Assembly: GCA_029558515.1 (NCBI GenBank) | Contig: JAKQEM010000014.1 | Location: 5,759 to 69,758, forward strand | Direction of reading: 5' to 3' | DNA from: a bacterium | GTDB lineage: Bacteria > Patescibacteriota > Gracilibacteria > Peribacterales > Peribacteraceae | Length of the DNA: 64,000 nucleotides | Shown here: positions 2,690 through 13,724 of the stretch, piece by piece | Layout: the number at the start of each line of letters is the position of its first letter | Numbering within the stretch: the first letter of the stretch is position 1 | Made by a program: the position numbers and the translations under genes | The notes under the pieces: generated by a model | The model's input: the letters and a program-made list of their open reading frames with translations, nothing else | The model's database searches: none | Told to the model about the DNA's origin: nothing

Positions 2690-2870
2690 TATTCCCCCAC
2701 CCCAACCCTCCCCCGCCACGCACCACCGACTCGCAGGGGGAGGGCGCAACCCTTCTGCTTTCAAATAATTTCTCCAATCAGAAAAAATCTCGTCTCCCCT
2801 CCCCCGGTAGTCGGCCGCGGCCGACGTGGCAAGCGGGTGTGGAGGGGGAGGGGTCGGGGGAGAGGGTATC
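2690..2870. repeat. GC-rich MITE-like element, long form (copy 1)
   Basis: Alignable along its length with 15270-15445. Shared blocks are CACCCCAACCCTC..CC, GGGAGGGCGCA.CCCT, ATCA.AAAAAATCTCG, GTCGGCCGCGGCCGACGTGGCAAGCGGGTGTGGAGGGGGAGGGG. It lies between the sod stop and the rpoB start. Confidence 0.8.
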
Positions 2871-2896
2871 CCCCGCAGGGCAGAGAGGTACAGGCT

Positions 2897-3499
2897 TCAG
2901 ACAGGGCCACTCAACCTCCTCCCCACCTCATCCCAATCGACCACGCTCCACCACGCAGCAATGTACTCCGGGCGGCGATTTTGGTAGTACAGATAGTACG
3001 CATGCTCCCAGACATCGAGACCCAGGATGGGCGCCATGCCAAGACTCAACGGACTGTCTTGATTGGGGAGACCGAGCACCTTCAGCTTGCCATTGTCACG
3101 GACCAGCCACGCCCAGCCGGATCCGAACTGCAACGTTGCTTTCTCACTAAACTGCGTCTTGAAATCCTGCACCGAGCCAAAGGCTTCCGTGAGCGCTCCG
3201 GCCACCTCCGCACTCGGCTCCGTCTGCTCCGGCGTCATCATCTGCCAGAAAAGCGTGTGATTGTGAAATCCTCCGCCGTGATTGCGAACGGCCGTGCGTT
3301 TGTCCTCGGGCACATCATCAAGATTGCGAAGAATGTCTTCGATCGGCATTTCTTCCCATTTGGTTCCTACGATCGCGGCATTGAGCTTGTCACAGTACGC
3401 CTGATGGTGCTTGGCGTAATGGATCTCCATGGTGCGCGCATCGATGTGCGGCTCCAGGGCATCGAAGGAATACGGCAGGGGGGAGAGGGAGAAGGGCAT
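2897..3499 (-). CDS. Fe/Mn-family superoxide dismutase
   Basis: The 200-aa ORF carries LPYSFDALEPHID..TMEIHYAKHH, FNHTLFW and DVWEHAYYL.YQNRRPEY motifs typical of the SodA/SodB family. Confidence 0.95.
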   Translation of the reverse strand: MPFSLSPLPYSFDALEPHIDARTMEIHYAKHHQAYCDKLNAAIVGTKWEEMPIEDILRNLDDVPEDKRTAVRNHGGGFHNHTLFWQMMTPEQTEPSAEVAGALTEAFGSVQDFKTQFSEKATLQFGSGWAWLVRDNGKLKVLGLPNQDSPLSLGMAPILGLDVWEHAYYLYYQNRRPEYIAAWWSVVDWDEVGRRLSGPV

Positions 3500-3648
3500 G
3501 GGCGAGGGAAGTGAGGGAGGTGAGAAAAGTGAGAAAAGGCAGGAAGGGCAGGAAGGGCGAAGGAATGAGGACGAAGATCAAATGGCAAAGGTCGAAACTG
3601 TATTGTATGACGTTGGGGAGAAGAATCAATGTCCGGCGAACAAATGTA

Positions 3649-3725
3649 CGTTACTTCGTTACTTCGTAGTATGGGATATGCTCTTTTCTGTGATTCGAGA
3701 TAACGAGATAACGAATCAACGAAAT
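3649..3725. repeat. oligomer-array hairpin (CGTTACTT x2 ... CGAGATAA x2)
   Basis: Imperfect inverted arms, each made of tandem 8-mers, in the divergent sod/femX spacer. Confidence 0.75.
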
Positions 3726-3750
3726 CCTCAACGCGTTCTATACTTCATCT

Positions 3751-4965
3751 ATGACTATCCGCCTGCTCTCCTCCCCCGCCGACCTCACCGCCTACAACGC
3801 CTGGGTTGCCGCCCATCCGCACGGCAGCCTGTGGCAGTCGGTGACATGGAAGAAGTTCCAGGAAGCGATCGGGCGCGAGGTGCGCATCTTTGCTGCATTC
3901 GATGAGGGAACGATACGAGCATCCGCGTTGGTCGTGATCGATAAGACGAGTTTTGGACTGAGTACGTGGGACATACCGCGCGGCCCTCTGGGGCCGGCGG
4001 AAATGCTAAATGCTAAATGCAAAATGCAAAATGATCCGGTGAAAGTGCTCTTGCAGACAATCGTTGATGATGCACGGAAGATGCGCAGTCTCAGTGTGTA
4101 CTATTCTCCTCAGCAACCATTGCTCATTTCTCATTTTGCATTTCGCATTCGCGCCTCAGCGCGACATGAGCAACCCGAAGCCACGCGCATCCTCGACCTG
4201 ACGCAAGCGGAGGAAGCGATCCTCGCGCAGATGCATCCCAAAGGAAGATACAACATCAAAGTGGCGCGGAAGCATGGCGTGCGCGTGGAACAATCGGCCG
4301 CGACCGATGCGAACTCCTTCGCATATCTCGCGCAGGAGACCGCCAAACGCGACGGGTTTCGGGCGCTTTCCGCCGCGCATTACCGGGCGTTTCTGGAGAA
4401 TGTGGAGGGGAGTTTCCTATTGATTGCGAGCGCACCCTTCCTCTCCCCCCCGGCCCCCCTCTCCACGGGAGAGGGGGGAGACAAGCCTTGTCCCCCCTTC
4501 CTCCCATGGAGGAAGGGGCCGGGGGATGGAGGAAAAGAACCTATCGCCGCCCTCATCGGCACCGTCTGGAACAAAACCGGTTATTACTATTACGGCGCAT
4601 CCGACTACGCGCACCGCAGCCTGATGGCCCCGTACCTCTTACAGTGGGAGGCGATGCGGTACTGCAAAGAGCGAGGATGTGAGAAGTATGATTTGCTGGG
4701 AATCGCCCCTCTCCCCCCTTCCCCCTCTCCACGGGAGAGGGGGGGGACCAATTTCGGTACCAGTCTCCCCTTCCTCCCGCTTGCCCTGAGCGTAGTCGAA
4801 GGGTGGAGGAAGGGGCCGGGGGATGGAGGTCATCCCTGGCAAGGAGTTTCTTCCTTCAAGGAAAAATTCGGCGGCACCGTCGTCTCCTATCCCCCGGAGC
4901 AGGAGATTTTGCTCCGGCCGATGCTGAAGAGAATGCTGGGGTGGAAGAGGAGGATGGTGGGGTAA
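3751..4965 (+). CDS. FemAB-family peptidoglycan interpeptide-bridge aminoacyltransferase (FemX/MurM-like) carrying in-frame repeat insertions
   Basis: Family-typical motifs are present: HPKGRYNIKVARKHGV, GYYYYGASDYAHRSLMAPYLLQWEAMRYCKERGCEKYDLLGI and SSFKEKFGG. The ORF is about 75 aa longer than the conserved blocks require because of two GC-rich palindromic inserts. Confidence 0.8.
   Translation: MTIRLLSSPADLTAYNAWVAAHPHGSLWQSVTWKKFQEAIGREVRIFAAFDEGTIRASALVVIDKTSFGLSTWDIPRGPLGPAEMLNAKCKMQNDPVKVLLQTIVDDARKMRSLSVYYSPQQPLLISHFAFRIRASARHEQPEATRILDLTQAEEAILAQMHPKGRYNIKVARKHGVRVEQSAATDANSFAYLAQETAKRDGFRALSAAHYRAFLENVEGSFLLIASAPFLSPPAPLSTGEGGDKPCPPFLPWRKGPGDGGKEPIAALIGTVWNKTGYYYYGASDYAHRSLMAPYLLQWEAMRYCKERGCEKYDLLGIAPLPPSPSPRERGGTNFGTSLPFLPLALSVVEGWRKGPGDGGHPWQGVSSFKEKFGGTVVSYPPEQEILLRPMLKRMLGWKRRMVG
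4001..4035. repeat. heptamer array AAATGCT AAATGCT AAATGCA AAATGCA AAATGAT inside femX-like ORF
   Basis: Five tandem 7-mers, translated as (E)MLNAKCKMQND. An inverted partner lies at 4123-4152. Confidence 0.85.
4123..4152. repeat. heptamer array CTCATTT CTCATTT TGCATTT CGCATTC inside femX-like ORF
   Basis: Reverse complement of the AAATGCA-type units at 4001-4035. Translated as LISHFAFRIR. Confidence 0.8.
4435..4532. repeat. GC-rich nested-palindrome element, short form, in frame inside femX-like ORF
   Basis: CCCCCGGCCCC-CCTCTCC-ACG-GGAGAGG-GGGGAGACAAGCCTTGTCCCCCC-TTCCTCC-CAT-GGAGGAA-GGGGCCGGGGG. Translated as PFLSPPAPLSTGEGGDKPCPPFLPWRKGPGDGG. Confidence 0.9.
4706..4829. repeat. GC-rich nested-palindrome element, short form with expanded loops, in frame inside femX-like ORF
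   Basis: Same modules as 4435-4532, with extra sequence in two loops. Translated as PLPPSPSPRERGGTNFGTSLPFLPLALSVVEGWRKGPGDGG. Confidence 0.85.
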
Positions 4966-5097
4966 CCCCCCGGCCCCTCCTGCCCTCTGGGGATTCCTCT
5001 CCCCCCCGGCCCCCCTCTCCGGTGGAGAGGGGGGAGACAAGCCTTGTCTCCCCTTCCTCCCATGGAGGAAGGGGCTGGGGGATGGAGGAAAAGGAGG
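4966..5097. repeat. GC-rich nested-palindrome element, short form, immediately after femX-like stop
   Basis: Near-identical to 4435-4532 (CCTCTCC-GGT-GGAGAGG variant). Confidence 0.9.
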
Positions 5098-5131
5098 AAG
5101 CACAGGAAGGGAGCCGAGGGGATGTAGGAAT

Positions 5132-5166
5132 AAAAAAAAAACCCCCTCTCTCGAGGGGGTTTTTTC
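5132..5166. terminator. bidirectional intrinsic terminator
   Basis: A10-CCCCCTC-TCTC-GAGGGGG-T6, between the convergent femX-like and S-layer genes. Confidence 0.8.
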
Positions 5167-5213
5167 GTCCCGTACGGGACCTAAAACTTCAGTGGAATGC
5201 TATGCGATGACGA

Positions 5214-8200
5214 TCAGTCAGCCATCAACGTGGAGAAGATCGTCGTTTCTGCGTTCTCAACCCAGAAGAAGGTCTCGTAGCCATCGGTCCACTTGATGTT
5301 GCCATCCGTGTCGGCAAACGCGTTCTCCGCCTGGTCGCTGAAGTTCGTAAGAGAAACCTGCAGCGAGGAGTTCGATGTATCAGTGACGTGGTTGTCATCG
5401 ACATCGGCCTCCAAGGAGAATGAAACAGACTGACCGCTCTTCACCTCTGTATCGAGGGACGTGCTGTCATCGCTGCAACGAACTTTCAGAGCACCGGTGG
5501 ACGCAGTTGCACTGGCGGTGCATTCAATCTTCGTCGTGGGCTGGTCGGTCCTGTACCACTTGAACTGTCCGCTGTCGAAGTCGATGTTCGTCGCCGCAAC
5601 CGTGAAGGTCACGCCCGTGAGGGTGGCGGAGTTCGTACCGCCCGCCGTGTTCGTGTTCGTCGGAGCCGTGAACTCGAAGCGAGCGATTTCCTGGTCGATA
5701 CCGCTCGGCAGAGCGCGAGCAGGCATCTTGTTCGCGATCGCAGAGAACTTGGCAAGCACGATGTCGTTGGCACTGCCCGTGATGCTGGTGCTGGTGGCAC
5801 TCGTGCGGTTGCCGAAGACCACTTCACCATCGGCAGTGTCGTCATTGTTGTTCACGCTCAGCTCGTTGCTGGACTGGACGCCCGTGGCGACGACGCCGCC
5901 GGAACCGGTCCAGAAGGTGACACCCGTCGACGAATTGGCGCCTAAGACATCGTTATTGACGCGGGGGCGCACCGTCAGAACAACCGGCGTGTCCTTCTTT
6001 ACAATGAGCTGGCTGGTGCCAAGGTTCACGCAGAAGACCGTTCCTTCATCCGCCAAGTTCGACACTGTCACCGTGCAGGGAGAGAGCGTCGCCAACTTGG
6101 TCGTCTCTGCATCCTTGAAGATCTCCAGTTGGGAGATGGCTGCTGCGGCATCTGCCGTCGCACCCGTCGCCGCAATGCGGATGGTATCCACACGGACGTC
6201 TTCATTCTGCGATGTCAGTTCCAGGCGGAGGACGGAGTCACCCAGCGTACCTGCCAGAATCTGGCGGGAACGCGGCTTGGTGTCTTCCTCCACGAACAGA
6301 TCACCCTGGTTCACGATGGTGTAGTTCTTACCGGCTGTCGTGTCCGGCGTCACCGTGATGCTGGATCCGGCATCTGCTTCCTCCATTTCCATGGCGTTCA
6401 TTTTGATTTGCAGCGCGTTCATATTCGGCGGATTGGAAGCGACATCTGCATGCACTTCGAAGATGACCGTTGCTTCCGCCGCCACTTCAAATCCTTTGCC
6501 GCCATTCAAATCATCAAACGTTACGGTTCCGCCGGAAGCGGAAGCCGCCACGCCCTTCTCGAGGATCGTATCGACGATGGTGTCACCGTCACTGTCCACC
6601 CACAGCGCGTAGTTCTGCGCGTTGAGCAGGTTGCCGGCGGCATCCTCGAAGGTGGCACTCGTCACCAGAGCATCGGAGGCCGCACCGGGCGTCACGTCAA
6701 ACCGGAGCAGGTTGATGTTCTGAGCCTTGCGCACCGTCGTTTCCGTCGCTCCGATGCTGCGCACCGCGACCGTCACCGTGGGAGCGACGATGATGTGCGT
6801 GCTTCCCGTCACGATGGAACCAGGGCGAATATCCGTGAGCGTCTTGCCCGTGGTCACGCCTTCCGCATCAACGTTTTGCAAAGGTGTGAAAGGAGCGCCA
6901 CATGCACCATCCTTGGTACAAATGGCGGCCTGGAAGCGGCTGTTGGCTACGACGCCGGTGATGAAGTCCACCGTCAATTCGAAGTTCTCCTGCTTCTCGA
7001 TGAGGAAATCATCGAAGCGGTAGATGTAGTAGCCTGCTGTGGAGCTCGCGCCGACCGCAGTCGCGGAGATGGAGCGGGCGGTCTTGGTGTTACGCAGCGT
7101 GACATCCTCCACATAAAGCGGGATATCCGCCGCCGTCTGCGCCGTTCCGGCGCTATCGGTATGATAGATCGCAACGAACAAATCACGAACGTCGACGGCT
7201 TCCGCACCCGGGGTGAAGATCACCTCGGCGAGCACTGCGTCATCACTGTCATCCGTGTACTTCTGCTGTGCGGGCCCATCGACCTCCACGGTCAACTGAC
7301 CTGCCTGCAGCGTCACGGGTGTCGCTGCGGGATCACCGTCTCTGGCAACCGGCGAACCGAAGAGCTGACCGCTCTTCCCCTTGCCGTACAGCGAACCGAC
7401 GACAAAGAGATCGGACAGTTCTTCGAGTTCAAACTTCACGGTATCGGCAGCGCCACCGACGGTGTCGGCGAGCACTTCGATGAGCAGGGTGTCTCCTGAC
7501 AAAATGACGCGGGGAGGATCGAACGTGAAGGTCACGTAGTCACCCGTTGTCGTCGCAACAGTGTTGCTCAGGACCGTGCCGTCCGTGCGCGCGAGGCGCA
7601 GGTTGGTCAGGTCGCCATCGGACGCCGTACCCGTCTGCTCCAGCGTGATGCTGTAGACAGCTTGGTCTTCATTGCTATCAGCGGCGAGTTCGAACTTCCC
7701 GACTTTCACTTTGCTCTCGCCGACATCCACGGTGGCGGGCGTCACGCTCTTGTACTCGAGCGTCACGGTCCCGGACGTCACGGCGGCAAGCTTGAAGGTG
7801 TTCCCGGCCATCGGGAAGCTTCCCGTCACTTCCTTCGCGTTGCTCTGGAAGTCGGTCTTCATTTCCACACCCAGGACGTGCTCGGCACCGGCAATCTTAT
7901 CGGTGGCGATGTCCGCGACGATATCGATCGTCTCAGAACGGCATGCCTGAATGGTCAGAGGATTCGTCAAACGCAAATCGGCCGTCTGATCATTGGTATC
8001 CAGCGATCGTCGGCGGGAGATGCGACCGCCATCCTTCGTCACGTAGACACCAAGGAGATCGGTCGTCAGTCCGTACCCGTCGTGCAAGACGGTGATCTCT
8101 TCGATCGTCACATCGTCATCGCAGGATGCCTCCAGATCCAGGCTCAGCATCACGACGCCGACTGCGCCCTGGGGCACTGTGTCGCCATCGGGGCTATCGG

Positions 8201-9194
8201 AAGCCACGGAGACTTCCAGGATGCCGTCACCCAGAACGATCTCCGTGTAACCGGAGAAGTCCATGGAGTCGGAAAAGGTCTCGCCGTCCGCCGCTTCCAT
8301 ATCGGTCACGGTGACGGTGTAGTCGCCGTCGGCATCGGTGGCCTCCGCGAGCGTGAGCTCGACGGTGGTGTCATCGACGACTTCGACAGACTCGACGTCG
8401 ATATCCGCGTCGCCGCTGATGGCGTAGCTGGCTGCCTCGGCAGCTGCTTCCTCATCCACGGCAACCGTGAAAGCGACTTCGATGACGTCCTCGGAGAGAG
8501 GCGTGACATCCTTGATGCCGGCCTCGGCGTCGCCGCCGCGCGCACAGTCCACACCGTAGGTGAGGTTCTGGTCCACGCGGTTGAGCATGACGACCATCTC
8601 GGCGCGGTTCATGTTGTCGCCGGGACGAGCGCGGCCCGTGGACTCATCGCCCTGCAGGACGCAGCTGTCGGCCGCCGTCTGCACGACGTCCGTGTACCAC
8701 TGTCCCGCGGGAACGTCCACGAAGGCGGGAGCGTCACCCGTCGCTTCCAGCGCGAATGCGCGAACGATGAGTGCCGCGGCCTCCGCGCGGTTGATGTTGG
8801 CGCCGGGTCGTGCGTTGCACGGCTTGGTGCCGGTGACATAACAGTCGTTGTCACCTTTGAGCCAGCCCTCCTTGGCTGCCTCTTCCATGTACCCGTAGTA
8901 CCATGCACCCGTCGCCACGTCGGCGAAGCTGGGGACGGCCGGGGGGGTGGAGAGAATTCCACCGTTGAGCTCAACGATGAGCTTGGTGAACTCCGCGCGG
9001 TTGGCGAGATCGCCGCCGCGGAAGCGGGTCTGGGTTGCGTCCAGGTAGCCGGCGTCCGTAAACGCTTCGACTGCCTCTTCGTACCAGACTCCTGCGGGAA
9101 CGTCGCTGTAGGCCGCAAATACGCTTCCCGCTTGGGTGAGCGCAATCGCCACGGCAGACATCCCTGCGAACAGTTTCTTCATGGAACTGGTCAT
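5214..9194 (-). CDS. SLH-domain S-layer-like giant surface protein
   Basis: Signal peptide MKKLFAGMSAVAIALTQAGSVFA is followed by three SLH-like repeats (YSDVP.G.WY...V....G, NRAEF/NRAEAAALIVRA). A Thr/Val/Asp-rich beta-type region of about 1100 aa follows. The start is placed at an internal ATG (9194, or 9182) just before the signal peptide. Confidence 0.8.
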   Translation of the reverse strand: MTSSMKKLFAGMSAVAIALTQAGSVFAAYSDVPAGVWYEEAVEAFTDAGYLDATQTRFRGGDLANRAEFTKLIVELNGGILSTPPAVPSFADVATGAWYYGYMEEAAKEGWLKGDNDCYVTGTKPCNARPGANINRAEAAALIVRAFALEATGDAPAFVDVPAGQWYTDVVQTAADSCVLQGDESTGRARPGDNMNRAEMVVMLNRVDQNLTYGVDCARGGDAEAGIKDVTPLSEDVIEVAFTVAVDEEAAAEAASYAISGDADIDVESVEVVDDTTVELTLAEATDADGDYTVTVTDMEAADGETFSDSMDFSGYTEIVLGDGILEVSVASDSPDGDTVPQGAVGVVMLSLDLEASCDDDVTIEEITVLHDGYGLTTDLLGVYVTKDGGRISRRRSLDTNDQTADLRLTNPLTIQACRSETIDIVADIATDKIAGAEHVLGVEMKTDFQSNAKEVTGSFPMAGNTFKLAAVTSGTVTLEYKSVTPATVDVGESKVKVGKFELAADSNEDQAVYSITLEQTGTASDGDLTNLRLARTDGTVLSNTVATTTGDYVTFTFDPPRVILSGDTLLIEVLADTVGGAADTVKFELEELSDLFVVGSLYGKGKSGQLFGSPVARDGDPAATPVTLQAGQLTVEVDGPAQQKYTDDSDDAVLAEVIFTPGAEAVDVRDLFVAIYHTDSAGTAQTAADIPLYVEDVTLRNTKTARSISATAVGASSTAGYYIYRFDDFLIEKQENFELTVDFITGVVANSRFQAAICTKDGACGAPFTPLQNVDAEGVTTGKTLTDIRPGSIVTGSTHIIVAPTVTVAVRSIGATETTVRKAQNINLLRFDVTPGAASDALVTSATFEDAAGNLLNAQNYALWVDSDGDTIVDTILEKGVAASASGGTVTFDDLNGGKGFEVAAEATVIFEVHADVASNPPNMNALQIKMNAMEMEEADAGSSITVTPDTTAGKNYTIVNQGDLFVEEDTKPRSRQILAGTLGDSVLRLELTSQNEDVRVDTIRIAATGATADAAAAISQLEIFKDAETTKLATLSPCTVTVSNLADEGTVFCVNLGTSQLIVKKDTPVVLTVRPRVNNDVLGANSSTGVTFWTGSGGVVATGVQSSNELSVNNNDDTADGEVVFGNRTSATSTSITGSANDIVLAKFSAIANKMPARALPSGIDQEIARFEFTAPTNTNTAGGTNSATLTGVTFTVAATNIDFDSGQFKWYRTDQPTTKIECTASATASTGALKVRCSDDSTSLDTEVKSGQSVSFSLEADVDDNHVTDTSNSSLQVSLTNFSDQAENAFADTDGNIKWTDGYETFFWVENAETTIFSTLMAD

Positions 9195-9763
9195 AGGAGT
9201 GTAAAGGATGAGAGAAATAAAAAAGGAGTACGTTTGGGTGTGCGATGTGGGGTTCCGTCGGATCCTTTGTGTTGTGGGGGAGGAATCGATCACTCGCCTC
9301 CTTACAACTAAAGAGAGAACACCGGATGCGGCGGCGCGCTTTGGCGCGATGGTTGATACGGAAAATGCACGATCGCCTTCTGCCTACTATAAGAAGGAAG
9401 AAAGGATGTGGAAACTCGCGACGGTCCACAGTCACGGGAACGTACGAGGGGCCGGTATGTGAATGATCCGTGCACAGATCCCACTGTCTTTCCGTACTGG
9501 CAAAAGAGGAGTGGAACCCGAGGATGCTACCGATGTGCCCTTGGTCACGGCAAGACATCGAAATCTCCTCGCGCACTCCCACAAACGCCCTCGTACCGCA
9601 CTCCGTTACGAGGCAAGAAAGAGCGACGGGACATTCTCGCAAGATAAATGGTCCAAATCGACAATGCATCAGTGGATTTCGCATGGGAAAATGATCAATT
9701 TTCTTATTCTCTCACGCAGCAACTTGTGTTGATGAAATGGGGAGTTGTGTTCTAAAAGTTTTC

Positions 9764-9950
9764 CCTCCTCACCATCCTCTCCTCACCCTCCCACCTCCTC
9801 ACCCCTATCCCCTCTCCTTCCCGCCTTCACGCCTGCAGGAGAGAGGGATGTTTGTGTTTTGTGGTTGTTTGTATCTGTTCACAAATCTTCTCCTCCCCCT
9901 CTCCAGTTGGCGTCGAGAAGGAATGGAGAGGGGGTCGGGGGGTGAGGAGA
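9764..9950. repeat. GC-rich MITE-like element, long form (TTTGTGTTTTGTG-centre subfamily)
   Basis: Termini are CCTCCTCACC...CTCCTCACCCCTATCCCCTCTCC and GGAGAGGGGGTCGGGGGGTGAGGAG. Alignable with 13471-13642. Confidence 0.85.
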
Positions 9951-9958
9951 AAAAAGCG

Positions 9959-11389
9959 TCACCTCCTCCTGACCACCACCTTCTTTCCTGTGATCTGCAC
10001 TGCGTACCCTTCCGCAATCAACCGATCGCGAATGGCATCCGACGCGGCGAAATCTTTCCGCGCGCGCGCATCCTCCATCTGCTTCACACGGTCGAGCACA
10101 TCCGCGGGCACTGTCTCCTCTTCAGGGTCGAAGCAGCCAAACGTCTCACGCACCATCTCCACAAAAGATTGTACAGACGTTCCGGTGGAACGTCTCTTCA
10201 TACAATCAAAGATCACCGCCAGCGCCGCAGGCGTATTCAGATCGCCGTCCATCGCGGAACGAAATGAATCGATGAACAATCGTACGTCGTCGGTTCCCTC
10301 GGAATCCTCGGTTGCCTCGGTTGCTTCGCTACTCATCATCCACTCCACAATCTTCATCCTCGCCTTCCGCGCATCCTCCATCCCCTTCCAGGTAAATTTC
10401 AAATTGGTGCGGTAGTGCACCGACAGTAAATAGTACCGGAGATCGAGCGGAGAAAATCCCTTCGCGATGATCTGATCGAGCGTGAGCACATTGCCCAGAC
10501 TCTTGCTCATCTTCTCTCCGGCGAGATCGATCCGTCGCTTGTGCACCCAGTACTTCACGAACGGTGATTTGCCGGACACCGCCTCGCTCTGCGCGATCTC
10601 ACACTCATGGTGCGGGAAGATGTTGTCCTCGCCGCCGGTGTGCAGATCGATCTGCTGTCCGAGAAGCGCCGCACTCATTGCACTGCACTCGATGTGCCAG
10701 CCAGGGAATCCGTCGGGCAATTGTTCTCCCGATGGTCCGAGGGGCGAACTCCACCGCAGCGCATGGTGCTCGTTTTGTCCCACGCAAAATTTCCACAGCG
10801 CGAAATCCGCCGGGTGCCGCTTGCCTTCATGCACCGCGATGCGCGCACCGCTCTTCACCGCATCGACTTTGTTTCCGGAAAGTTGTCCGTACTGAGGAAA
10901 GCGAGAGACATCATAATAGATGCCGTCTTCGGTGACATAGGCAATCTCCTTCCGTAGCAAATCCGCAATCATCTCCTTCATCTGTTCGGTGTACTCCGAT
11001 GCCCGCGGGCGCTCATCGGGCGGAAGAATGTTCAATAATTTTTCATCCGCAATGAATTGCTCCTCGTACCCGCGCGCGATCTTCAAAACCGTCTCGTGCG
11101 TCACCCTGCCATATTCCTCGCGCGCCTTCTTTTCAATTTTATCTTCTCCGCTGTCTCCGTCGGCAACCAAATGCCCCACGTCCGTGATGTTCATGACGTG
11201 CTTCACCTCATACCCGCTGACCCGTAACCACCGCTTGAGGAGATCGGCCAGAAGATAACTGCTGAAGTTCCCGATGTGCGCGCGACCGTAGACCGTGGGG
11301 CCGCAGGTGTACATGGTCACCGCGGGCGGGCGGGCGGGAGCGAAAACTTCCTCCTTCTTCGTGAGGGTATTGAAGAGATGCAGGGGCAT
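9959..11389 (-). CDS. cysS: cysteine--tRNA ligase
   Basis: Contains MYTCGPTVYGRAHIGN (HIGH-type motif), KMSKSLGN and a class I synthetase layout. Start placed at MPLHLFNTL. Confidence 0.95.
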   Translation of the reverse strand: MPLHLFNTLTKKEEVFAPARPPAVTMYTCGPTVYGRAHIGNFSSYLLADLLKRWLRVSGYEVKHVMNITDVGHLVADGDSGEDKIEKKAREEYGRVTHETVLKIARGYEEQFIADEKLLNILPPDERPRASEYTEQMKEMIADLLRKEIAYVTEDGIYYDVSRFPQYGQLSGNKVDAVKSGARIAVHEGKRHPADFALWKFCVGQNEHHALRWSSPLGPSGEQLPDGFPGWHIECSAMSAALLGQQIDLHTGGEDNIFPHHECEIAQSEAVSGKSPFVKYWVHKRRIDLAGEKMSKSLGNVLTLDQIIAKGFSPLDLRYYLLSVHYRTNLKFTWKGMEDARKARMKIVEWMMSSEATEATEDSEGTDDVRLFIDSFRSAMDGDLNTPAALAVIFDCMKRRSTGTSVQSFVEMVRETFGCFDPEEETVPADVLDRVKQMEDARARKDFAASDAIRDRLIAEGYAVQITGKKVVVRRR

Positions 11390-11529
11390 GGGGGTAGAAT
11401 AATGGGAAATAGGGAATGGAGTAAGAGGGAGATACAAAAAAAACGGCCCACCTCTCTTGGAGTGATGAGCCGTTGCCTGGAGAGACTATAGATTGATGAA
11501 CTCTCCGGGCGAAAAATTCGCGCCTTCCG

Positions 11530-11682
11530 CTAGTTCCACAGAAGGCGTTCCTCTTCGGCCGTGATGATCTCTGCGATCACCTCGGCCAGGAGTTCCATGG
11601 AGCATTGCGCTCCGGAACCCCTTTTTTGCAGCATTCGGAGGACGTCCTCCTCCAACGCTGCAAGGTCGATCCGTTCTTCCAT
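11530..11682 (-). CDS. hypothetical 50-aa acidic protein (MEERIDLAALEEDVLRMLQKRG...)
   Basis: Canonical SD GGAGGAAAAATC lies directly before the ATG, which is rare in this window. A TTGACG-15nt-TGgTACAAT promoter sits about 85 nt upstream. No homology recognised. Confidence 0.45.
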   Translation of the reverse strand: MEERIDLAALEEDVLRMLQKRGSGAQCSMELLAEVIAEIITAEEERLLWN

Positions 11683-11773
11683 GATTTTTCCTCCATGAAA
11701 GATCGACGCCGCGTCGGTCCCACCCATCCGTTGCGTGGGGTCGCGGTAGTGCTATTGTACCACATTTGAAATT

Positions 11774-11800
11774 TCGTCAAACCAATCTTACTTGTTACCA
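11774..11800 (-). promoter_or_regulatory. sigma70-like promoter (TTGACG-15nt-TGgTACAAT)
   Basis: Read on the minus strand. About 85 nt upstream of the 50-aa ORF. Confidence 0.45.
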
Positions 11801-11828
11801 GAGAATTATTGTGACAGTATTTTGATAC

Positions 11829-11857
11829 TTGACAAGTCACCAAAAGTCGGCATACTG
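11829..11857 (+). promoter_or_regulatory. sigma70-like promoter (TTGACA-16/17nt-CATACT)
   Basis: Back to back with the minus-strand promoter. It points into the gene-poor repeat-rich stretch. Confidence 0.4.
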
Positions 11858-11917
11858 GTGCACTTTCTCCTGCTCCTTCTCTTTTCCGATGCGACGATGA
11901 CGGACGACGCGTGCACG

Positions 11918-12112
11918 TCACCCTGAGCATGCCGAACGGGTGACGAAGGCTTGATCTCCGATGGCGGTACATTTACCCTTCGTACCGATGAAGCAGTACT
12001 GCACCGTCGGCATGCACTTCTCCTGCTTCTCTTTTACGAAGCAGCGCGCGGCGTGATGTGGGAACAATCGGACCCCCTTCACCCCGCACGAGGAAAGCGG
12101 GGCGGTTTGCAT
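11918..12112 (-). CDS. possible small Cys-rich protein (MQTAPLSSCGVKGVRLFPHHAARCFVKEKQEKCMPTVQYCFIGTKGKCTAIGDQ...)
   Basis: Open frame with non-repetitive composition and a CTCTCCTC-ATG start context like other genes here. It lies antisense to a predicted plus-strand promoter, and no homology was recognised. Confidence 0.25.
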   Translation of the reverse strand: MQTAPLSSCGVKGVRLFPHHAARCFVKEKQEKCMPTVQYCFIGTKGKCTAIGDQAFVTRSACSG

Positions 12113-12250
12113 GAGGAGAGAGTGATCATTCACCCATTCGATTCCCTCAGGGTAAAAAGGCAAAGCTCCTTCACAGCAGCGGCTCAAGATATGCACTTTG
12201 TGGGGTGTGGTCTCATGGAAAGGGCCAAGGAGGCCCGAGGGCTCACACCT

Positions 12251-12290
12251 ATCTCCCCTCACCCCCCCGAACGGGGGGAAAGGAAAGATA
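12251..12290. repeat. short fragment of the GC-rich element (CTCCCCTCACCCCCCCGAACGGGGGGAAAGGAAAG)
   Basis: Shares the CTCACCCC terminus and a CCCCCC-GAAC-GGGGGG hairpin. Confidence 0.5.
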
Positions 12291-12430
12291 TGAATTATTC
12301 GAAGAGAGCTTCGGCGGCAACGCCGAAGCAGAAACATCTGTCTGCGCGCAAGCGCAGGCAGATACGACGCCGCTGCCGGCCTACCGGCGGCGGCAAGAAT
12401 CTAGCTGCCCTCTACGCAAAAAGGGCGTAG
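12290..12430 (+). CDS. possible 46-aa highly basic peptide (MNYSKRASAATPKQKHLSARKRRQIRRRCRPTGGGKNLAALYAKRA)
   Basis: An AAGGAAAGAT SD-like sequence lies before the ATG. The ORF sits inside a repeat-rich, gene-poor stretch. No homology recognised. Confidence 0.2.
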   Translation: MNYSKRASAATPKQKHLSARKRRQIRRRCRPTGGGKNLAALYAKRA

Positions 12431-12438
12431 AGAGCAGC

Positions 12439-12478
12439 AAAAAAATGCCCGGGGCCCCTCTTTGAGGAGGCCCCGGGC
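12439..12478 (-). terminator. intrinsic terminator (minus strand)
   Basis: GCCCGGGGCC / GGCCCCGGGC 10-bp stem. On the minus strand it is followed by ATTTTTTT. Confidence 0.6.
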
Positions 12479-12566
12479 AAAAAGCCACCTTCGACTCCAC
12501 CCCACATCGTGTATCCATCGCCCCATGGATCTGTCACCAAAGGGAAAGGAGGAAGGTGACAGAACC

Positions 12567-12605
12567 GGTGGAGAAGTCTCTACAGCAGCTTCTCCACCAT
12601 TTTTC
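12567..12605 (+). terminator. intrinsic terminator (plus strand)
   Basis: GGTGGAGAAG-loop-CTTCTCCACC followed by ATTTTTCTCTCT. It is preceded by a hairpin CTGTCACC-AAAGGGAAAGGAGGAA-GGTGACAG. Confidence 0.6.
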
Positions 12606-12748
12606 TCTCTGATGCCAGGTCCATGGGGCGCCCCGATTTTTCACACCACCGCACCATTGCCATCGATCTGCATTCGCAACTCCCGAAATGGAAGTAAGGC
12701 CCGGAATGGATCCGGCGCGGGAGGACGCGATGCAGAAAGGAGTCATCC

Positions 12749-12907
12749 ATGACCCAACGGAAAGACCTCCCGTGGCGGCTCGCCACGGAAGAGGTCTACA
12801 GGCGGGAGTTTCCGGTGCTCCGGACTCCCGCCAAAAAAATGAAGCCAAGGGCTCCGGTTCATCCGGCGCCTCTGGCGGGTCGTGCCCGCAAGCCAACGCC
12901 CAAGTAG
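12749..12907 (+). CDS. possible 52-aa basic peptide (MTQRKDLPWRLATEEVYRREFPVLRTPAKKMKPRAP...)
   Basis: AAGGAG lies 6 nt upstream of the ATG. The ORF is not in the track (<60 aa) and was translated by hand. No homology recognised. Confidence 0.2.
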   Translation: MTQRKDLPWRLATEEVYRREFPVLRTPAKKMKPRAPVHPAPLAGRARKPTPK

Positions 12908-13005
12908 GCTTGCGGGAATCAGGCGCCGGACACATCCTTGCGATGATGTCCGGCGCTACCAGTTCTTCGAATGCAGGTCGATCGCAATACGTTCCTCGTT
13001 CACAC

Positions 13006-13215
13006 TCTCCTCACCCCTATCCCCTCCCTGGCCGTCCGAAGCTGCGAGCATCGGCGAGGAGCGTAGGCGGCTCCATTCCTCCCCGACGCCAACGGAAGAG
13101 GGGATGTTTTCTTGTGTGGTTGTTCCCTCCATCCCCCTGCCCCTTCCTCCACGGGAGGAAGGGGGGGCAAGGCCTGTCTCCCCCTCTCCGGTGGAGAGGG
13201 GGTCGGGGGGAGAGG
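13006..13215. repeat. composite GC-rich element: long-form left half fused to a reverse-oriented short form
   Basis: CTCCTCACCCCTATCCCCTCCC...CCCCGACGCCAACGGAAGAGGGG is followed by CCTTCCTCC-ACG-GGAGGAAGG, GGGGGCAAGGCCTGTCTCCCC, CTCTCC-GGTG-GAGAGG and GGGTCGGGGGG. Confidence 0.85.
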
Positions 13216-13267
13216 TTTTACAACGAGGAGGGGAAGGGGGTGAAGGAAATCGAGGAGAGAGAGCTTG

Positions 13268-13299
13268 AAAAAAGGACACCCGCGCACGCGCGGATGTCC
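13268..13299 (-). terminator. intrinsic terminator (minus strand)
   Basis: On the minus strand, GGACATCCGCGCGTGCGCGGGTGTCC followed by TTTTTT. Confidence 0.6.
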
Positions 13300-13470
13300 C
13301 CGTCCTGTCCTTTTGGCTGTGGCGACTGCGCAGAGTGCGCACGGGGAGCAAAAGACACCCCCACGATCGGCCCCTGGCCGTGGTGGACAGGACTCCCCAC
13401 CTCGCAAGAGCGAAGGGGTCCGCAAGTATCCCCCTTTGAGGAGGAGATGCAAGAGGGAGCTTTTCTTTTC

Positions 13471-13642
13471 CTCCTCACCCCTACCCCCTCTCCCTCCTGC
13501 CCCGACGCCAACGGGAGAGGGGAATCTTTGTTTTGTGTTTTTTGTTTTCTCTCATGACAAATAGCGCCTCCCTCTCCAGGGGGCATGCGGGCGGAATGGA
13601 GAGGGAGGTTGGGAGGGTGAGGAGGGAATAAGGAGAGTGAGG
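13471..13642. repeat. GC-rich MITE-like element, long form
   Basis: CTCCTCACCCCTACCCCCTCTCC...CGACGCCAACGGGAGAGGGG...TTTGTTTTGTGTTTTTTG...GGAATGGAGAGGGAGGTTGGGAGGGTGAGGAGG. Confidence 0.85.
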
Positions 13643-13664
13643 AAAATAAGAAGAGTTCATCAAG

Positions 13665-13701: not shown

Positions 13702-13724
13702 GGGCTGAAGCGGCGTACGCCGCC

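What the first reader, a model, noticed from the sequence alone, without database searches (positions are those of the whole stretch)
4435..5097. GC-rich nested-palindrome elements inserted in frame in a FemAB-family gene (Rickettsia-RPE-like behaviour)
Three copies of one 95-130 bp element lie within 660 bp. The element is built from an outer CCCCCGGCCCC/GGGGCCGGGGG clamp around three hairpins. The hairpins are CCTCTCC-N3-GGAGAGG, GGGGAGACAAGCCTTGTCTCCCC and CCTTCCTCC-CAT-GGAGGAAGG. Two copies (4435-4532 and 4706-4829) sit inside the femX-like ORF without breaking it. They add PFLSPPAPLSTGEGGDKPCPPFLPWRKGPGDGG-type peptides between well-conserved Fem blocks (FLLIA / PIAALIGTVWNKTGYYYYGASD, and KYDLLGIA / HPWQGVSSFKEKFGG). 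The third copy starts one nucleotide after the stop codon. A reverse-oriented copy lies at about 13120-13215. In-frame, tolerated palindromic insertions in essential genes are well known only for Rickettsia palindromic elements. Seeing the same behaviour here, in a high-GC genome with a different element, would be new.
Basis: partly seen in the sequence, partly recalled or inferred. Interest (0 to 1): 0.85.

Follow-up and report, generated by a model that had tools for sequence, protein, structure and literature searches.

The report
Triplex-motif palindromes inside a FemX gene
A cell-wall enzyme gene (FemX) of an uncultured Peribacteria bacterium carries two copies of a small GC-rich palindromic repeat in frame in two surface loops. 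The repeat is a paired form of the known BoxC/"triplex motif" repeat of E. coli and seems to be the gene-less relative of a widespread DUF559 nuclease cassette that also sits in frame inside housekeeping genes.

Summary
Four copies of a 90-122 nt nested palindrome lie at 4440-4532, 4708-4829, 4996-5088 and 13126-13215. Two are in frame in an intact FemAB/FemX ORF (3751-4965). The third lies in its 3' UTR, after a 28-nt fragment that abuts the stop codon. Two independent assemblies give identical DNA.

The AlphaFold2 model keeps a confident FemX fold, and both inserts are low-confidence coils between conserved elements.

Among 87 syntenic Peribacteria orthologues, 37 have neither loop expanded, 40 have site 1 expanded and 25 have site 2 expanded. 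The five orthologues whose DNA I examined carry different GC-rich palindromes, so these loops are recurrent insertion hot spots.

The element is not a new kind. Each half is an intrastrand purine-motif triplex repeat, the architecture of E. coli BoxC/PIT/TMECO, arranged as an inverted doublet.

Two things look unreported. The first is frequent in-frame colonisation of housekeeping genes in a CPR lineage. The second is a strong link to DUF559 (Vsr-like nuclease) genes: triplex units occur at 2.6/kb beside them against 0.06/kb elsewhere. DUF559 cassettes bounded by these units sit in frame in ribE, rsmG, tsaB and other genes. Translation of the inserts is inferred, not shown.

The parts
3751..4965 (+). 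FemAB/FemX-family aminoacyl-tRNA-dependent peptidoglycan bridge transferase gene (404 aa), the host of the two in-frame inserts
   Evidence: Pfam PF02388 1e-40 and PF13480. AF2 model with pLDDT 87.7 and pTM 0.85. Best Foldseek matches are FemX 6snr and W. viridescens FemX (TM 0.71-0.73 normalised by target). Orthologues are 322-335 aa when uninserted.
4440..4532 (+). Copy 1: a 93-nt inverted doublet in frame (insert 1, aa ~228-263, peptide APFLSPPAPLSTGEGGDKPCPPFLPWRKGPGDGG). It has a triplex unit on the - strand at 4440-4479, a palindromic spacer AGACAAGCCTTGT at 4480-4492, and a triplex unit on the + strand at 4493-4532.
   Evidence: Length 93 = 31 codons, with no stop in six frames. Coil with pLDDT 52-69 between strands 221-227 and 264-273.
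4708..4829 (+). Copy 2: a 122-nt variant of the doublet in frame (insert 2, aa ~320-361, peptide PLPPSPSPRERGGTNFGTSLPFLPLALSVVEGWRKGPGDGG). It has a triplex unit on the - strand at 4709-4745, a spacer enlarged by 7 nt, a second hairpin at 4767-4815 whose loop is enlarged to 25-27 nt, and a third-strand segment GGGGATGGAGG at 4819-4829.
   Evidence: Coil with pLDDT 39-53 between strand 312-314 and helix 364-371.
4966..4993 (+). Truncated repeat unit (CCCCCGGCCCCTCCTGCCCTCTGGGGA) that abuts the stop codon
   Evidence: Inverted-repeat pair I25, 74% complementary to 4499-4525.
4996..5088 (+). Copy 3: a 93-nt doublet in the femX 3' UTR, 95% identical to copy 1. Triplex units lie at 4996-5035 (-) and 5049-5088 (+).
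5135..5166 (.). Bidirectional intrinsic terminator between the convergent femX and SLH-protein genes. It shows that copy 3 lies inside the femX transcript.
   Evidence: The sequence is A10-CCCCCTCTCTCGAGGGGG-T6.
13126..13215 (-). Copy 4: a 90-nt doublet in reverse orientation. It lies in the long spacer between the cysS side and csrA. A gene caller's 275-aa ORF without any Pfam hit reads through it and is probably spurious.
9760..9950 (.). Related long-spacer element (CCTCACCCC-type end units around a T/G-rich spacer), intergenic. Sister copies lie at 13463-13630. A second subtype lies at 2690-2870 and 15270-15445.
   Evidence: (families D5, D6, D14, D17, D19).
4002..4149 (+). A separate, AT-richer pair of inverted arms made of 8-nt periodic repeats (4002-4034 and 4124-4149). 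They are in frame in femX and flank 89 nt of conserved coding sequence. This is a different repeat class.
   Evidence: (I15). The two peptide segments have lowered pLDDT (68-81) in the model.

Best explanation
What it is. The element is selfish, non-autonomous repeat DNA of the BoxC/PIT/'triplex motif' kind. Each half is a C-rich stem, a 3-nt loop, the complementary G-rich stem, a 3-nt loop (CCG) and a mirror-image G-rich segment. An example is CCCCTTCCTCC-CAT-GGAGGAAGGGG-CCG-GGGGATGGAGG. Two such units on opposite strands, separated by a 13-nt palindromic spacer, make the 93-nt doublet, which can fold as a long hairpin or as a cloverleaf.

What happened in this genome. In this Peribacteria genome the doublet landed in or was copied into femX twice and its 3' UTR once. 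Copy 1 and copy 3, 556 nt apart, are 95% identical.

Why the gene survives. The two genic copies survive for three reasons. (a) They lie in two surface loops. (b) The net insert length keeps the reading frame. (c) The G/C-rich sequence has no stop codons in the frame that is read. I infer that they are transcribed and translated as about 34 and 42 extra Pro/Gly/Ser-rich, disordered residues that leave the FemX fold intact.

Why in-frame copies are seen. Survival of in-frame copies is a selection filter, not a property of the element: the lengths of 45 doublets are spread evenly over the three residues modulo 3.

How it moves (inferred). The doublet is probably the ORF-less derivative of a cassette with the same layout, a triplex unit on the - strand, then a DUF559 (Vsr-like PD-(D/E)XK nuclease) gene, then a triplex unit on the + strand. 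That nuclease would supply the DNA cleavage that drives copying.

Shown: the anatomy, the copies, the loop location, presence/absence among orthologues, the DUF559 association and the in-frame cassettes. Inferred: translation of the inserts, tolerance of them, and the role of DUF559 in mobility.
For: - Copies and statistics.
- Triplex architecture: my detector recovers the published E. coli TMECO #9 as a positive control. It finds 7 units in the window, paired -/+ in copies 1, 3 and 4, and 0 in 10 shuffles.
- Published definition and E. coli sequences of the motif, including inverted pairs.
- Independent assemblies are identical.
- Loop location in a confident FemX fold.
- Orthologues: the basal loop is 5-7 aa at site 1 and 9-10 aa at site 2. 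Of 87 orthologues, 40 are expanded at site 1, 25 at site 2, and 37 at neither.
- In the five orthologues with DNA in hand, all expanded loops are GC-rich nested palindromes (-25 to -97 kcal/mol). Several pass the triplex detector.
- Within one clade that shares a site-1 insert, site 2 is empty (P0119) or holds different inserts (P0035, P0047, P0059, P0065). This implies repeated events.
- The same 25-mer doublets lie in frame in an NTP-transferase and an aroD-aroE fusion of other Peribacteria, verified by Pfam.
- DUF559 link: units occur at 2.61/kb within 200 nt of DUF559 against 0.061/kb elsewhere in the same 80 metagenome loci (42 of 80 loci, Poisson P about 1e-96). The commonest layout is unit(-) ... 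DUF559 ... unit(+) (hairpin-only version).
- DUF559 bounded by these units is embedded in frame in ribE (about 10 Peribacteria species), rsmG, tsaB, an inositol-monophosphatase-family gene, an epimerase and Type ISP/Eco57I-like enzymes.
- E. coli K-12 ycjD (DUF559) lies 167 nt from TMECO #9.
- Doublet length modulo 3 is unbiased: 15/16/14.
Against: - There is no expression or peptide evidence, so translation of the inserts is an inference from frame conservation. Predicted proteins are also biased towards intact ORFs.
- No orthologue closer than about 51-61% identity exists in the databases searched. An empty site in a sister genome therefore cannot be shown for these particular two inserts.
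- No DUF559 gene is present in the 64-kb window or in the 6 kb upstream of it.
- No target-site duplications are seen, so classical MITE transposition is not supported.
- About half of the sampled DUF559 genes have no triplex unit nearby. One Fimbriimonadales DUF559 gene has none at all.
- The strict E. coli consensus CCCTCNCCC...GGGNGAGGG is not matched letter for letter.
- The E. coli correlation between ycjD and TMECO number is confounded by phylogeny.
Confidence: 0.75

Rival explanations
1. The inserts are not translated. The stable stem that joins both ends of each insert extrudes it from the mRNA, and it is then excised or bypassed by the ribosome, as in the 50-nt hop of phage T4 gene 60. 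Mature FemX would therefore lack the extra peptides.
For: Each insert closes on itself with a very stable helix (-74 to -79 kcal/mol). Mobile-element-borne bypass signals exist (title and abstract of bioRxiv 10.1101/2022.08.31.505936, listed).
Against: Every insert seen in 87 orthologues, and in ribE, rsmG, tsaB and other genes, keeps the reading frame and lacks stops. Removal would not require this. However, the FemX sample consists of predicted intact proteins, which is a biased sample. No take-off/landing codon pair or splice-like motif is evident. The less biased sample is the ribE loci found by DNA motif: about 9 of 10 are open through the whole cassette.
Confidence: 0.07
2. The femX copy in the window is a decaying pseudogene that happens still to be open, because the G/C-rich inserts carry no stop codons.
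For: Copies 1, 3 and 4 are stop-free in all six frames, so an open frame is weak evidence on its own. No expression data are available.
Against: The ORF has the full length, and all residues invariant among 118 orthologues are retained. The model is confident outside the inserts. Both net insert lengths are multiples of three. The gene sits in conserved synteny. Insert-bearing orthologues are common and all intact.
Confidence: 0.05
3. The extra segments are ordinary lineage-specific low-complexity linkers that grew in place, and the similarity to intergenic repeats is convergent.
For: The two loops vary in length across the family. Staphylococcal FemA/FemX carry about 100 residues between the aligned blocks in this region, against 63 here. 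Whether this is the known coiled-coil arm is inferred from prior knowledge, not tested here.
Against: There is 95% nucleotide identity between the genic copy 1 and the non-coding copy 3, and about 90% with the reverse copy 8 kb away. The inserts keep full palindromic and triplex symmetry, which a protein linker has no reason to keep.
Confidence: 0.02
4. The doublets have been domesticated. As DNA or RNA structures inside and just after femX they tune its expression, through transcription or replication pausing at triplex DNA or through mRNA stability and translation speed. Alternatively, the added loops have acquired a function. This is compatible with the insertion origin.
For: Three copies cluster on one transcript. 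All repeat-type elements of the window cluster in 2.7-15.5 kb, in the conserved rpoB...csrA neighbourhood. In one clade the insert stems are conserved while the loop codon varies (VPSP-x-GGGV).
Against: Insert sequences differ completely between lineages, and 37 of 87 orthologues lack them. The peptides are predicted to be disordered. BoxC/PIT elements showed no promoter or terminator activity in E. coli, according to the introduction of PMC4666352.
Confidence: 0.1

Closest known systems
BoxC / PIT / TMECO intrastrand triplex repeats (E. coli and other Proteobacteria, cyanobacteria; Holder et al. 2015, PMC4666352)
   Same: The unit architecture is the same: a C-rich stem of 9-12 nt, a loop of 3-6 nt, a complementary G-rich stem, a 1-3 nt loop (CCG, TTA, TCG) and a mirror G-rich third strand. 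The units often occur as inverted pairs about 100 nt long. They are dispersed, multi-copy and of unknown function. One E. coli copy lies next to a DUF559 gene.
   Different: The stem sequence is shifted (CCCCTTCCTCC or CCCCCCTCTCC instead of CCCTCNCCC). The host is a CPR bacterium. Copies lie in frame inside protein-coding genes, whereas the E. coli copies are described as intergenic. A link to DUF559 is not mentioned in that paper: 'endonuclease' and 'intragenic' each have 0 occurrences in its main text.
Rickettsia palindromic elements (RPE; Ogata et al. 2000, as summarised in PMC10969869)
   Same: Both are palindromic repeats of about 100-150 nt inserted in frame in unrelated housekeeping genes, at positions compatible with the protein fold, as well as in intergenic DNA.
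   Different: There is no sequence relationship. RPEs are AT-rich and restricted to Rickettsia, while these elements are 75-80% G+C with purine/pyrimidine mirror symmetry. RPEs have no known associated enzyme. RPEs encode a conserved peptide, whereas here the same element is read in different frames.
REP/REPIN elements with their RAYT transposases
   Same: Both are short imperfect palindromes that occur singly or as inverted doublets forming hairpins. Both are multi-copy. In both, a single-copy enzyme gene is flanked by the repeat units in inverted orientation.
   Different: There is no conserved GTAG/CGTC tag. The associated gene is a DUF559 PD-(D/E)XK (Vsr-like) nuclease, not a Y1 (IS200/IS605-like) transposase. 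REPs are essentially extragenic.
Vsr-like homing endonucleases (I-Bth0305I family; PMC2677866, PMC3239194)
   Same: In both, a Vsr-fold nuclease gene is carried by a selfish element that interrupts conserved genes.
   Different: Those nucleases ride in group I introns, inteins or 'fractured genes' and are spliced out. The DUF559 cassettes here have no intron or intein features and appear to be read through. DUF559 is a different Pfam family, and no activity is known for it.
Other coding palindromes: PARCELs of Mollicutes (PMC2996958) and Nematomorpha mitochondrial coding palindromes (PMC6649704)
   Same: These are palindromic DNA that is part of an open reading frame and translatable in more than one orientation or frame.
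   Different: They have a different sequence, host range and presumed origin. I did not read these papers beyond the title and abstract shown.

Membership tests
BoxC/PIT/TMECO intrastrand triplex motif repeats | Three consecutive blocks: a pyrimidine stem, the complementary purine stem, and a mirror purine (G/A/T) third strand. Stems are 6-15 nt with at most 1 mismatch, and loops are 1-6 nt (the ITxF definition). | tested here: met
   Detector with stems of 9-12 nt and at most 1 mismatch per pairing: 7 units in the window and 0 in 10 shuffles. It recovers the published E. coli TMECO #9.
BoxC/PIT/TMECO intrastrand triplex motif repeats | Sequence pattern CCCTCNCCC-N3-6-GGGNGAGGG-N3-GGGNGAGGG. 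| tested here: not met
   The window units read CCCCTTCCTCC-CAT-GGAGGAAGGGG-CCG-GGGGATGGAGG and CCCCCCTCTCC-CGT-GGAGAGGGGGG-CCG-GGGGGGAGAGG. The design and the CCG loop are the same, but the register and letters differ. This is therefore a relative of TMECO, not TMECO itself.
BoxC/PIT/TMECO intrastrand triplex motif repeats | Dispersed multi-copy occurrence, often as two units in inverted configuration. | tested here: met
   There are four doublets in the window, and 45 -/+ doublets in the window and loci L001-L092. Inverted pairs in E. coli are described.
BoxC/PIT/TMECO intrastrand triplex motif repeats | Actual formation of a triplex by the single strand (CD/NMR in the published work). | not testable with these tools
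   Only the base-triplet rules (G*G-C, A*A-T, T*A-T) were checked.
Rickettsia palindromic elements (RPE) | Sequence membership in one of the RPE families of Rickettsia. | not tested
   No RPE sequence was compared. The composition (75-80% G+C) and the host (a CPR bacterium) make homology very unlikely.
Rickettsia palindromic elements (RPE) | In-frame insertion in unrelated protein-coding genes at fold-compatible positions. | tested here: met
   femX twice. NTP-transferase and aroD-aroE in other Peribacteria.
REP/REPIN-RAYT | A conserved GTAG or CGTC tetranucleotide at one end of the palindrome (PMC3733652 abstract). | tested here: not met
   The unit ends are CCTC.../...GAGG. The inter-stem loop varies (CCG, CTG, CAG, TCG, TTA, GTA).
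REP/REPIN-RAYT | Association with a RAYT (Y1 transposase) gene flanked by REPs. | not tested
   No systematic domain scan of the window or loci for Y1_Tnp was run. The gene found flanked by the units is DUF559 instead.
MITE (non-autonomous derivative of an autonomous element) | Terminal inverted repeats shared with a longer, enzyme-encoding element. | tested here: met
   The ribE cassette ends are CCTCCATCCCCCGGCCCCTTCCTCC-GGA-GGAGGAAGGGG ... CCCCTCCTCC-CCC-GGAGGAGGGGGCAGGGGTGGAGG, compared with the doublet ends. The layout unit(-)/DUF559/unit(+) is seen in 11 loci.
MITE (non-autonomous derivative of an autonomous element) | Target-site duplications, and a transposase in the autonomous partner. 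| tested here: not met
   There are no direct repeats flanking the four copies or the ribE cassette. The partner encodes a Vsr-like nuclease domain, not a transposase.
FemAB family (host gene) | The FemAB Pfam domain and the two-GNAT-domain FemX fold. | tested here: met

The most novel reading that the evidence does not exclude
BoxC/PIT/'triplex motif' repeats have been orphan repeats since the 1990s. They may be the termini and ORF-less derivatives of a pan-bacterial selfish cassette that encodes a DUF559 (Vsr-like) nuclease. Both the cassette and its miniature doublets would colonise protein-coding genes in frame, without any splicing. This would add disordered loops or a whole nuclease domain to housekeeping enzymes such as FemX, RibE, RsmG, TsaB, CysQ-like phosphatases and Type ISP restriction enzymes. 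It appears especially frequent in the reduced genomes of Peribacteria (CPR). If correct, it would assign a function to DUF559/YcjD, explain the origin of BoxC, and account for part of the unexplained insertions in CPR proteins.
Probability: 0.45. Interest if true: 0.85.

Novelty: new variant of a known kind. Interest (0 to 1): 0.68.

Why it matters
1. The finding shows that part of the extra, disordered sequence in proteins of uncultured CPR bacteria is translated selfish DNA. This matters for annotation, for alignments and for structure prediction.
2. The two FemX loops are a natural map of insertion-tolerant sites in a cell-wall enzyme family. They were hit repeatedly by different palindromes in 50 of 87 orthologues.
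3. It extends Rickettsia-type in-frame repeat colonisation to a G+C-rich free-living or episymbiotic lineage, and to a repeat class (BoxC/triplex motif) previously treated as intergenic.
4. The statistical and structural link between these repeats and DUF559 nuclease genes gives a testable hypothesis for two long-standing orphans: the BoxC repeat and the DUF559/YcjD protein family of E. coli.

Tried and rejected
- Rfam: no family reaches threshold. There are only generic sub-threshold hairpin (miRNA-precursor) hits on the elements.
- Literature searches for the exact sequences of this element found nothing relevant. 'Peribacteria + palindromic' and 'DUF559' gave no paper on such repeats. A search with the generic end sequence led to the triplex-motif paper.
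- I tested the idea that the element is built to be frame-neutral, with a length that is a multiple of 3. Copies 1, 3 and 4 are 93, 93 and 90 nt, but 45 doublets from many genomes give 15/16/14 for length modulo 3. Rejected.
- Target-site duplications: none.
- DUF559 in the window or its upstream flank: none by tblastn.
- The first DUF559 alignment (A4) was too diverse for the locus search. A narrower one (A5) worked.
- I looked for an E. coli 'empty site' for ycjD. Genomes without ycjD carry the eefRABCD operon there instead, so there is no clean presence/absence junction.
- TMECO number per strain against ycjD. Counts are 19-30 in phylogroups A/B1/C, with one strain at 13 (UMNK88). They are 1-2 in B2, 11 in E and 12-15 in D. 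The phylogroup assignments come from my own knowledge. The result is suggestive but confounded by phylogeny.
- A sister genome with uninserted femX: the closest non-identical homologue is only 51% identical over the whole length, and 55-61% over aligned columns.
Full report

Yes. Reading 3300-5400, running the repeat finder and aligning the copies shows four copies of one element:
- copy 1 at 4440-4532 (93 nt);
- copy 2 at 4708-4829 (122 nt);
- copy 3 at 4996-5088 (93 nt, 95% identical to copy 1 over 100 nt);
- copy 4 at 13126-13215 (90 nt), reverse-oriented.

The invariant 25-mer GGAGGAAGGGGCNGGGGGATGGAGG occurs four times in 64 kb, against none in 100 dinucleotide shuffles.

Copies 1 and 3 fold at -75 to -79 kcal/mol, with z-scores of -5.5 to -6.3. 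They fold either as one long hairpin or as a cloverleaf of three hairpins closed by an outer stem.

The ORF 3751-4965 (404 aa) is a FemAB-family protein (Pfam 1e-40, split into three stretches by the inserts). Copies 1 and 2 lie in it in frame.

The stop codon is at 4963-4965. A 28-nt truncated unit follows at once (4966-4993), and the full third copy starts at 4996. A bidirectional intrinsic terminator lies at 5135-5166, so copy 3 belongs to the femX 3' UTR.

The identical protein and identical DNA over window 3001-5400 occur in two independent assemblies, ENA MEGAHIT and JGI. An assembly artefact is therefore very unlikely.

**2. Organism and gene.**

The best homologues are FemA/FemB-family proteins of Candidatus Peribacteria/Peregrinibacteria, which belong to the CPR.

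Orthology is supported by conserved synteny, rpoB-sodA-femX-SLH protein-cysS-csrA-deoC, in three of the five other genomes examined; the other two contigs are too short to show more than sodA next to femX.

An AlphaFold2 model built on 118 sequences is confident (pLDDT 87.7, pTM 0.85). It matches solved FemX structures: 6snr, and W. viridescens FemX with TM 0.71-0.73 normalised by target.

Insert 1 (aa ~228-263) is coil with pLDDT 52-69, in the turn between strands 221-227 and 264-273. Insert 2 (aa ~318-362) is coil with pLDDT 39-53, between strand 312-314 and helix 364-371.

**3. Are they insertions?**

The copies in non-coding DNA (copy 3 and copy 4) show that the genic segments are instances of a dispersed repeat, not native linkers.

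In 87 orthologues that could be parsed, the basal loop is 5-7 aa at site 1 and 9-10 aa at site 2. Of the 87, 37 have neither loop expanded, 40 have site 1 expanded (up to 56 aa), 25 have site 2 expanded (up to 44 aa), and 15 have both. The extra residues are rich in Pro, Ser and Gly.

For five orthologues I fetched the DNA. Every expanded loop is itself a GC-rich nested palindrome (-25 to -97 kcal/mol), and the sequences differ between lineages.

One clade shares a site-1 insert (TQTPTPVPSP-x-GGGVPRRGGVGDE, in which only the hairpin-loop codon varies). Within it, site 2 is empty in one member and holds different inserts in others.

So the same two loops were hit repeatedly and independently. 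They are hot spots, most simply because insertions elsewhere in the gene are not tolerated.

Some orthologues carry a different, AT-richer class of palindrome at these same loops (peptides such as SDQRTADS and KLKAQS).

**4. What is the element?**

Each half of the doublet has three blocks. An example is CCCCTTCCTCC - CAT - GGAGGAAGGGG - CCG - GGGGATGGAGG. The third block is the mirror image of the second, with G opposite G and A or T opposite A. This is the rule for an antiparallel purine-motif intrastrand triplex.

The other half is the same design on the opposite strand: CCCCCCTCTCC - CGT - GGAGAGGGGGG - CCG - GGGGGGAGAGG.

A literature search with the generic end sequence led to Holder et al. 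2015 (PMC4666352). That paper describes exactly this architecture as the 'TMECO' motif, earlier called BoxC or PIT. Its pattern is CCCTCNCCC-N3-6-GGGNGAGGG-N3-GGGNGAGGG. It was found 3610 times in 262 proteobacterial genomes. G/C-rich triplex motifs in general are also abundant in cyanobacteria. The motif often occurs as inverted pairs, and its function is unknown.

A detector I wrote for the three-block rule recovers a published E. coli copy as a positive control. It finds seven units in the window, paired -/+ in copies 1, 3 and 4, and none in shuffles.

The window element is thus an inverted doublet of BoxC-like triplex units. It is a relative of TMECO, not TMECO itself, because the letters and register of the stems differ.

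Rfam has no matching family.

**5. Distribution.**

The 25-mer was found in 92 stretches of one-genome-per-species DNA. Among the 80 listed stretches, about 45 come from Peribacteria, Peregrinibacteria or Patescibacteria of many species. The rest come from Nodosilinea and Leptolyngbyaceae (cyanobacteria), Fimbriimonadaceae, Anaerolineae and a Kiritimatiellales genome.

In these loci the unit appears in three forms: with the partner unit and a spacer of 3-108 nt (45 doublets), as solo units, or in tandem arrays.

In the window all repeat-type hairpins lie between 2.7 and 15.5 kb, and none lies in the other 48 kb. This region includes four longer elements with CCTCACCCC-type ends.

**6. In-frame copies elsewhere.**

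I scanned the motif-bearing loci for open frames that extend at least 60 codons on both sides. This found doublets in frame in a nucleotidyl-transferase (L031, including a tandem PVHSSIPRPLPP repeat) and in an aroD-aroE fusion (L081). Both are confirmed by Pfam.

It also found, in about ten Peribacteria species, a riboflavin synthase (two Lum_binding domains) with a complete DUF559 domain between the two barrels. The DNA shows the DUF559 ORF bounded by one triplex unit on each side, in inverted orientation: CCTCCATCCCCCGGCCCCTTCCTCC-GGA-GGAGGAAGGGG ... DUF559 ... CCCCTCCTCC-CCC-GGAGGAGGGGGCAGGGGTGGAGG. This is the layout of the 93-nt doublet with the 13-nt spacer replaced by a nuclease gene.

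**7. The DUF559 link.**

A protein search with the cassette found the same arrangement in four other settings:
- in rsmG;
- in a PduO-type adenosyltransferase;
- in mnmE;
- as a free-standing gene flanked by both units.

A metagenome scan with a DUF559 alignment gave 80 loci with G+C from 27 to 72%. In these loci:
- Hairpins of this class occur at 2.78/kb within 150 nt of the DUF559 match, against 0.08/kb elsewhere in the same loci.
- Full three-block units occur at 2.61/kb within 200 nt, against 0.061/kb elsewhere. They are present in 42 of 80 loci, with Poisson P about 1e-96.
- Even if every distant unit lay in intergenic DNA (my assumption of about 12% of the sequence), the excess would still be about five-fold.
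- The commonest layout is unit(-), DUF559, unit(+) (11 loci). The reverse layout also occurs.

Pfam confirms DUF559 embedded in frame between parts of host domains in Type ISP and Eco57I-like restriction-modification enzymes, an inositol-monophosphatase-family protein, an NAD-dependent epimerase, TsaB and GidB/RsmG. In iPGM it follows the host domains at the C-terminal end.

Twenty positions are invariant across 14 diverse cassette copies (for example RFRRQ, D45, E56-x-D58-G59 and H62). This suggests the nuclease domain is maintained by selection.

In E. coli K-12 the DUF559 gene ycjD lies 167 nt from TMECO #9. With 23 copies in 4.6 Mb, the chance of one falling within 200 nt of a given gene is about 0.002 (my estimate).

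The gene ycjD is present in 3378 of 5426 complete E. coli genomes. Where it is absent, the eefRABCD operon occupies the site.

Published TMECO counts are 19-30 in A/B1/C strains, which carry ycjD, apart from UMNK88 at 13. They are 1-2 in B2 strains, 11 in E and 12-15 in D. The phylogroup assignments are from my own knowledge. This agrees with the link but is confounded by phylogeny.

Neither 'endonuclease' nor 'intragenic' occurs in the main text of the triplex paper. None of the 25 papers in the library that mention DUF559 appears, from its title or abstract, to concern repeats. I therefore regard the link as unreported within what I could search, not as proven new.

**8. How it most likely works.**

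Shown:
- the doublet is a dispersed repeat;
- it lies in frame in two loops of an otherwise intact, well-conserved FemX;
- such insertions recur at the same loops and in other genes;
- the units bound DUF559 cassettes.

Inferred:
- The inserts are transcribed and translated into disordered Pro/Gly/Ser-rich loops that the fold tolerates.
- In-frame survival is a selection filter, because doublet lengths show no bias towards multiples of three.
- The doublet is the miniature, ORF-less derivative of the DUF559 cassette, and is copied with the help of that nuclease.

How the copying happens cannot be decided here. It could be nicking at the structured unit followed by repair-templated copying, or a homing-like process. 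There are no target-site duplications, which argues against classical cut-and-paste MITE transposition. The near-identity of copies 1 and 3, 556 nt apart, suggests local copying or gene conversion.

**9. Rivals.**

- Removal or ribosomal bypass of the inserts is not excluded. It is disfavoured because every insert keeps the frame. However, predicted proteins are a biased sample.
- A pseudogene is unlikely, given the retained invariant residues and the many intact insert-bearing orthologues.
- Native linkers are excluded by the non-coding copies.
- An assembly artefact is excluded by the independent assemblies.
- A regulatory or structural role acquired after insertion is possible, but the sequences are too variable between lineages to support it.

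**10. Comparison with what is known, and novelty.**

The behaviour is that of Rickettsia palindromic elements, but the element is unrelated to them. In-frame MITE fusions are also known from several other bacteria.

The repeat unit belongs by architecture to the known BoxC/PIT/triplex-motif class. It fails the defining tests for REP-RAYT (no GTAG/CGTC tag) and for classical MITEs (no target-site duplication, no transposase).

I rate the finding a new variant of a known kind. It is a known repeat class showing RPE-like in-frame colonisation in a CPR lineage, with a newly visible partner gene.

The interest of the FemX finding on its own is moderate. The DUF559-BoxC link that it led to is what raises the score.

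Noticed in passing
window 4002-4034 and 4124-4149 (inside femX); also 3649-3725, 14082-14114, 19457-19555, 30250-30275, 31891-31959, 52571-52604, 53977-54035, 54356-54449: This is a second, AT-richer repeat class: inverted arms made of tandem 8-nt units (AATGCAAA, TTCGTTAC, GTTACTCC, ATACTCAA and others). Each locus has its own 8-mer, and the arms flank 30-100 nt. Inside femX the arms are in frame (NAKCKMQND / LISHFAFRI) and enclose 89 nt of conserved coding sequence. Three of the five orthologues examined have arms of quite different sequence that are still complementary, at the same two positions (for example GCTGGCTTCCAGCC.../...GGCTGGAAGCCAGC in L095). A fourth (L098) has only a short 10-nt repeat elsewhere, and none was reported for L099. 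One such pair brackets a promoter-like stretch just upstream of femX.
   Followed up: partly
L013 6330-6880 (-); also L026, L030, L034, L060, L068, L074, L077, L078, L046: Riboflavin synthase of about ten Peribacteria species carries a whole DUF559 (Vsr-like nuclease) domain in frame between its two lumazine-binding barrels. The domain is bounded by one triplex unit on each side. In L046 the DUF559 part has a frameshift, but the assembly coverage is only about 3.8x.
   Followed up: yes
L104-L183 (for example L112 332-4207, L135 1852-3396, L153 1631-3178, L106 2057-3199, L108 710-1837, L155 11-4714): DUF559 cassettes with triplex-unit ends are embedded in frame in Type ISP/Eco57I-like restriction-modification enzymes, an inositol-monophosphatase-family protein, an epimerase, TsaB and RsmG. 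The host bacteria range from 27 to 72% G+C. Several other loci have DUF559 open in the same frame as a downstream gene (gmk, sufS, recQ).
   Followed up: partly
L184 (E. coli K-12 NC_000913.3 1349500-1352500), unit at 1351205-1351239, ycjD at 1351407-1351760: The E. coli DUF559 gene ycjD lies 167 nt from a BoxC/TMECO repeat. The gene is accessory: it is present in 3378 of 5426 complete genomes. It is replaced by the eefRABCD efflux operon in the others, and similarity breaks about 40 nt from the repeat.
   Followed up: partly
L001, L006, L009, L015, L016, L020, L029, L035, L047, L057, L058, L066 (Nodosilinea sp. P-1105); L002, L004, L008, L010, L019, L022 and others (Fimbriimonadaceae/Fimbriimonadales): The exact 25-mer of the Peribacteria element also occurs many times in cyanobacteria (as a near-identical ~100-nt repeat) and in Armatimonadota (as a solo hairpin plus third strand with a long inner loop). 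Whether this reflects horizontal spread or a shared constraint was not examined.
   Followed up: no
L012 1-70, L031 5292-5352, L067 1-35, L080 1-40 (Peribacteria MAG CAYHOS01): Tandem arrays with a 36-nt period (GGAGGAAGGGGCCGGGGGATGGAGGAGTGAACAGGA) lie at several contig ends, so assemblies break on them. In L031 the array lies in frame in an NTP-transferase as repeated PVHSSIPRPLPP.
   Followed up: no
window 2700-15450 versus 16000-64000: All GC-rich palindromic elements of the window cluster in the rpoB-sodA-femX-SLH-cysS-csrA neighbourhood, which has unusually long intergenic spacers. None lies in the remaining 48 kb.
   Followed up: no
window 12730-13557 (+): Gene callers of two assemblies annotate a 275-289 aa ORF without any Pfam hit that reads through copy 4 and a long-spacer element. 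Its translation is low-complexity, and it is probably a spurious ORF created by stop-free repeat DNA.
   Followed up: no
window 3478-3590: A purine-rich low-complexity stretch (GGGAGAGGGAGAAGGGCATGGGCGAGGGAAGTGAGGGAGGTGAGAAAAGTGAGAAAAGGCAGGAAGGGCAGGAAGGGCGAAGGAATGAGG) lies between the divergent sodA and femX genes, with its first ~22 nt overlapping the start of sodA (2897-3499). It was not analysed.
   Followed up: no
window 4767-4815; L036 about 5230-5280: The enlarged loop of the second hairpin in copy 2 (GCTTGCCCTGAGCGTAGTCGAAGGG) resembles an enlarged loop at the same position of a doublet in another Peregrinibacteria genome (GCCTGCCCTCCGTAGCCTTGGCGAAGGAGGG). This suggests a nested small palindrome that travels with the element.
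   Followed up: no
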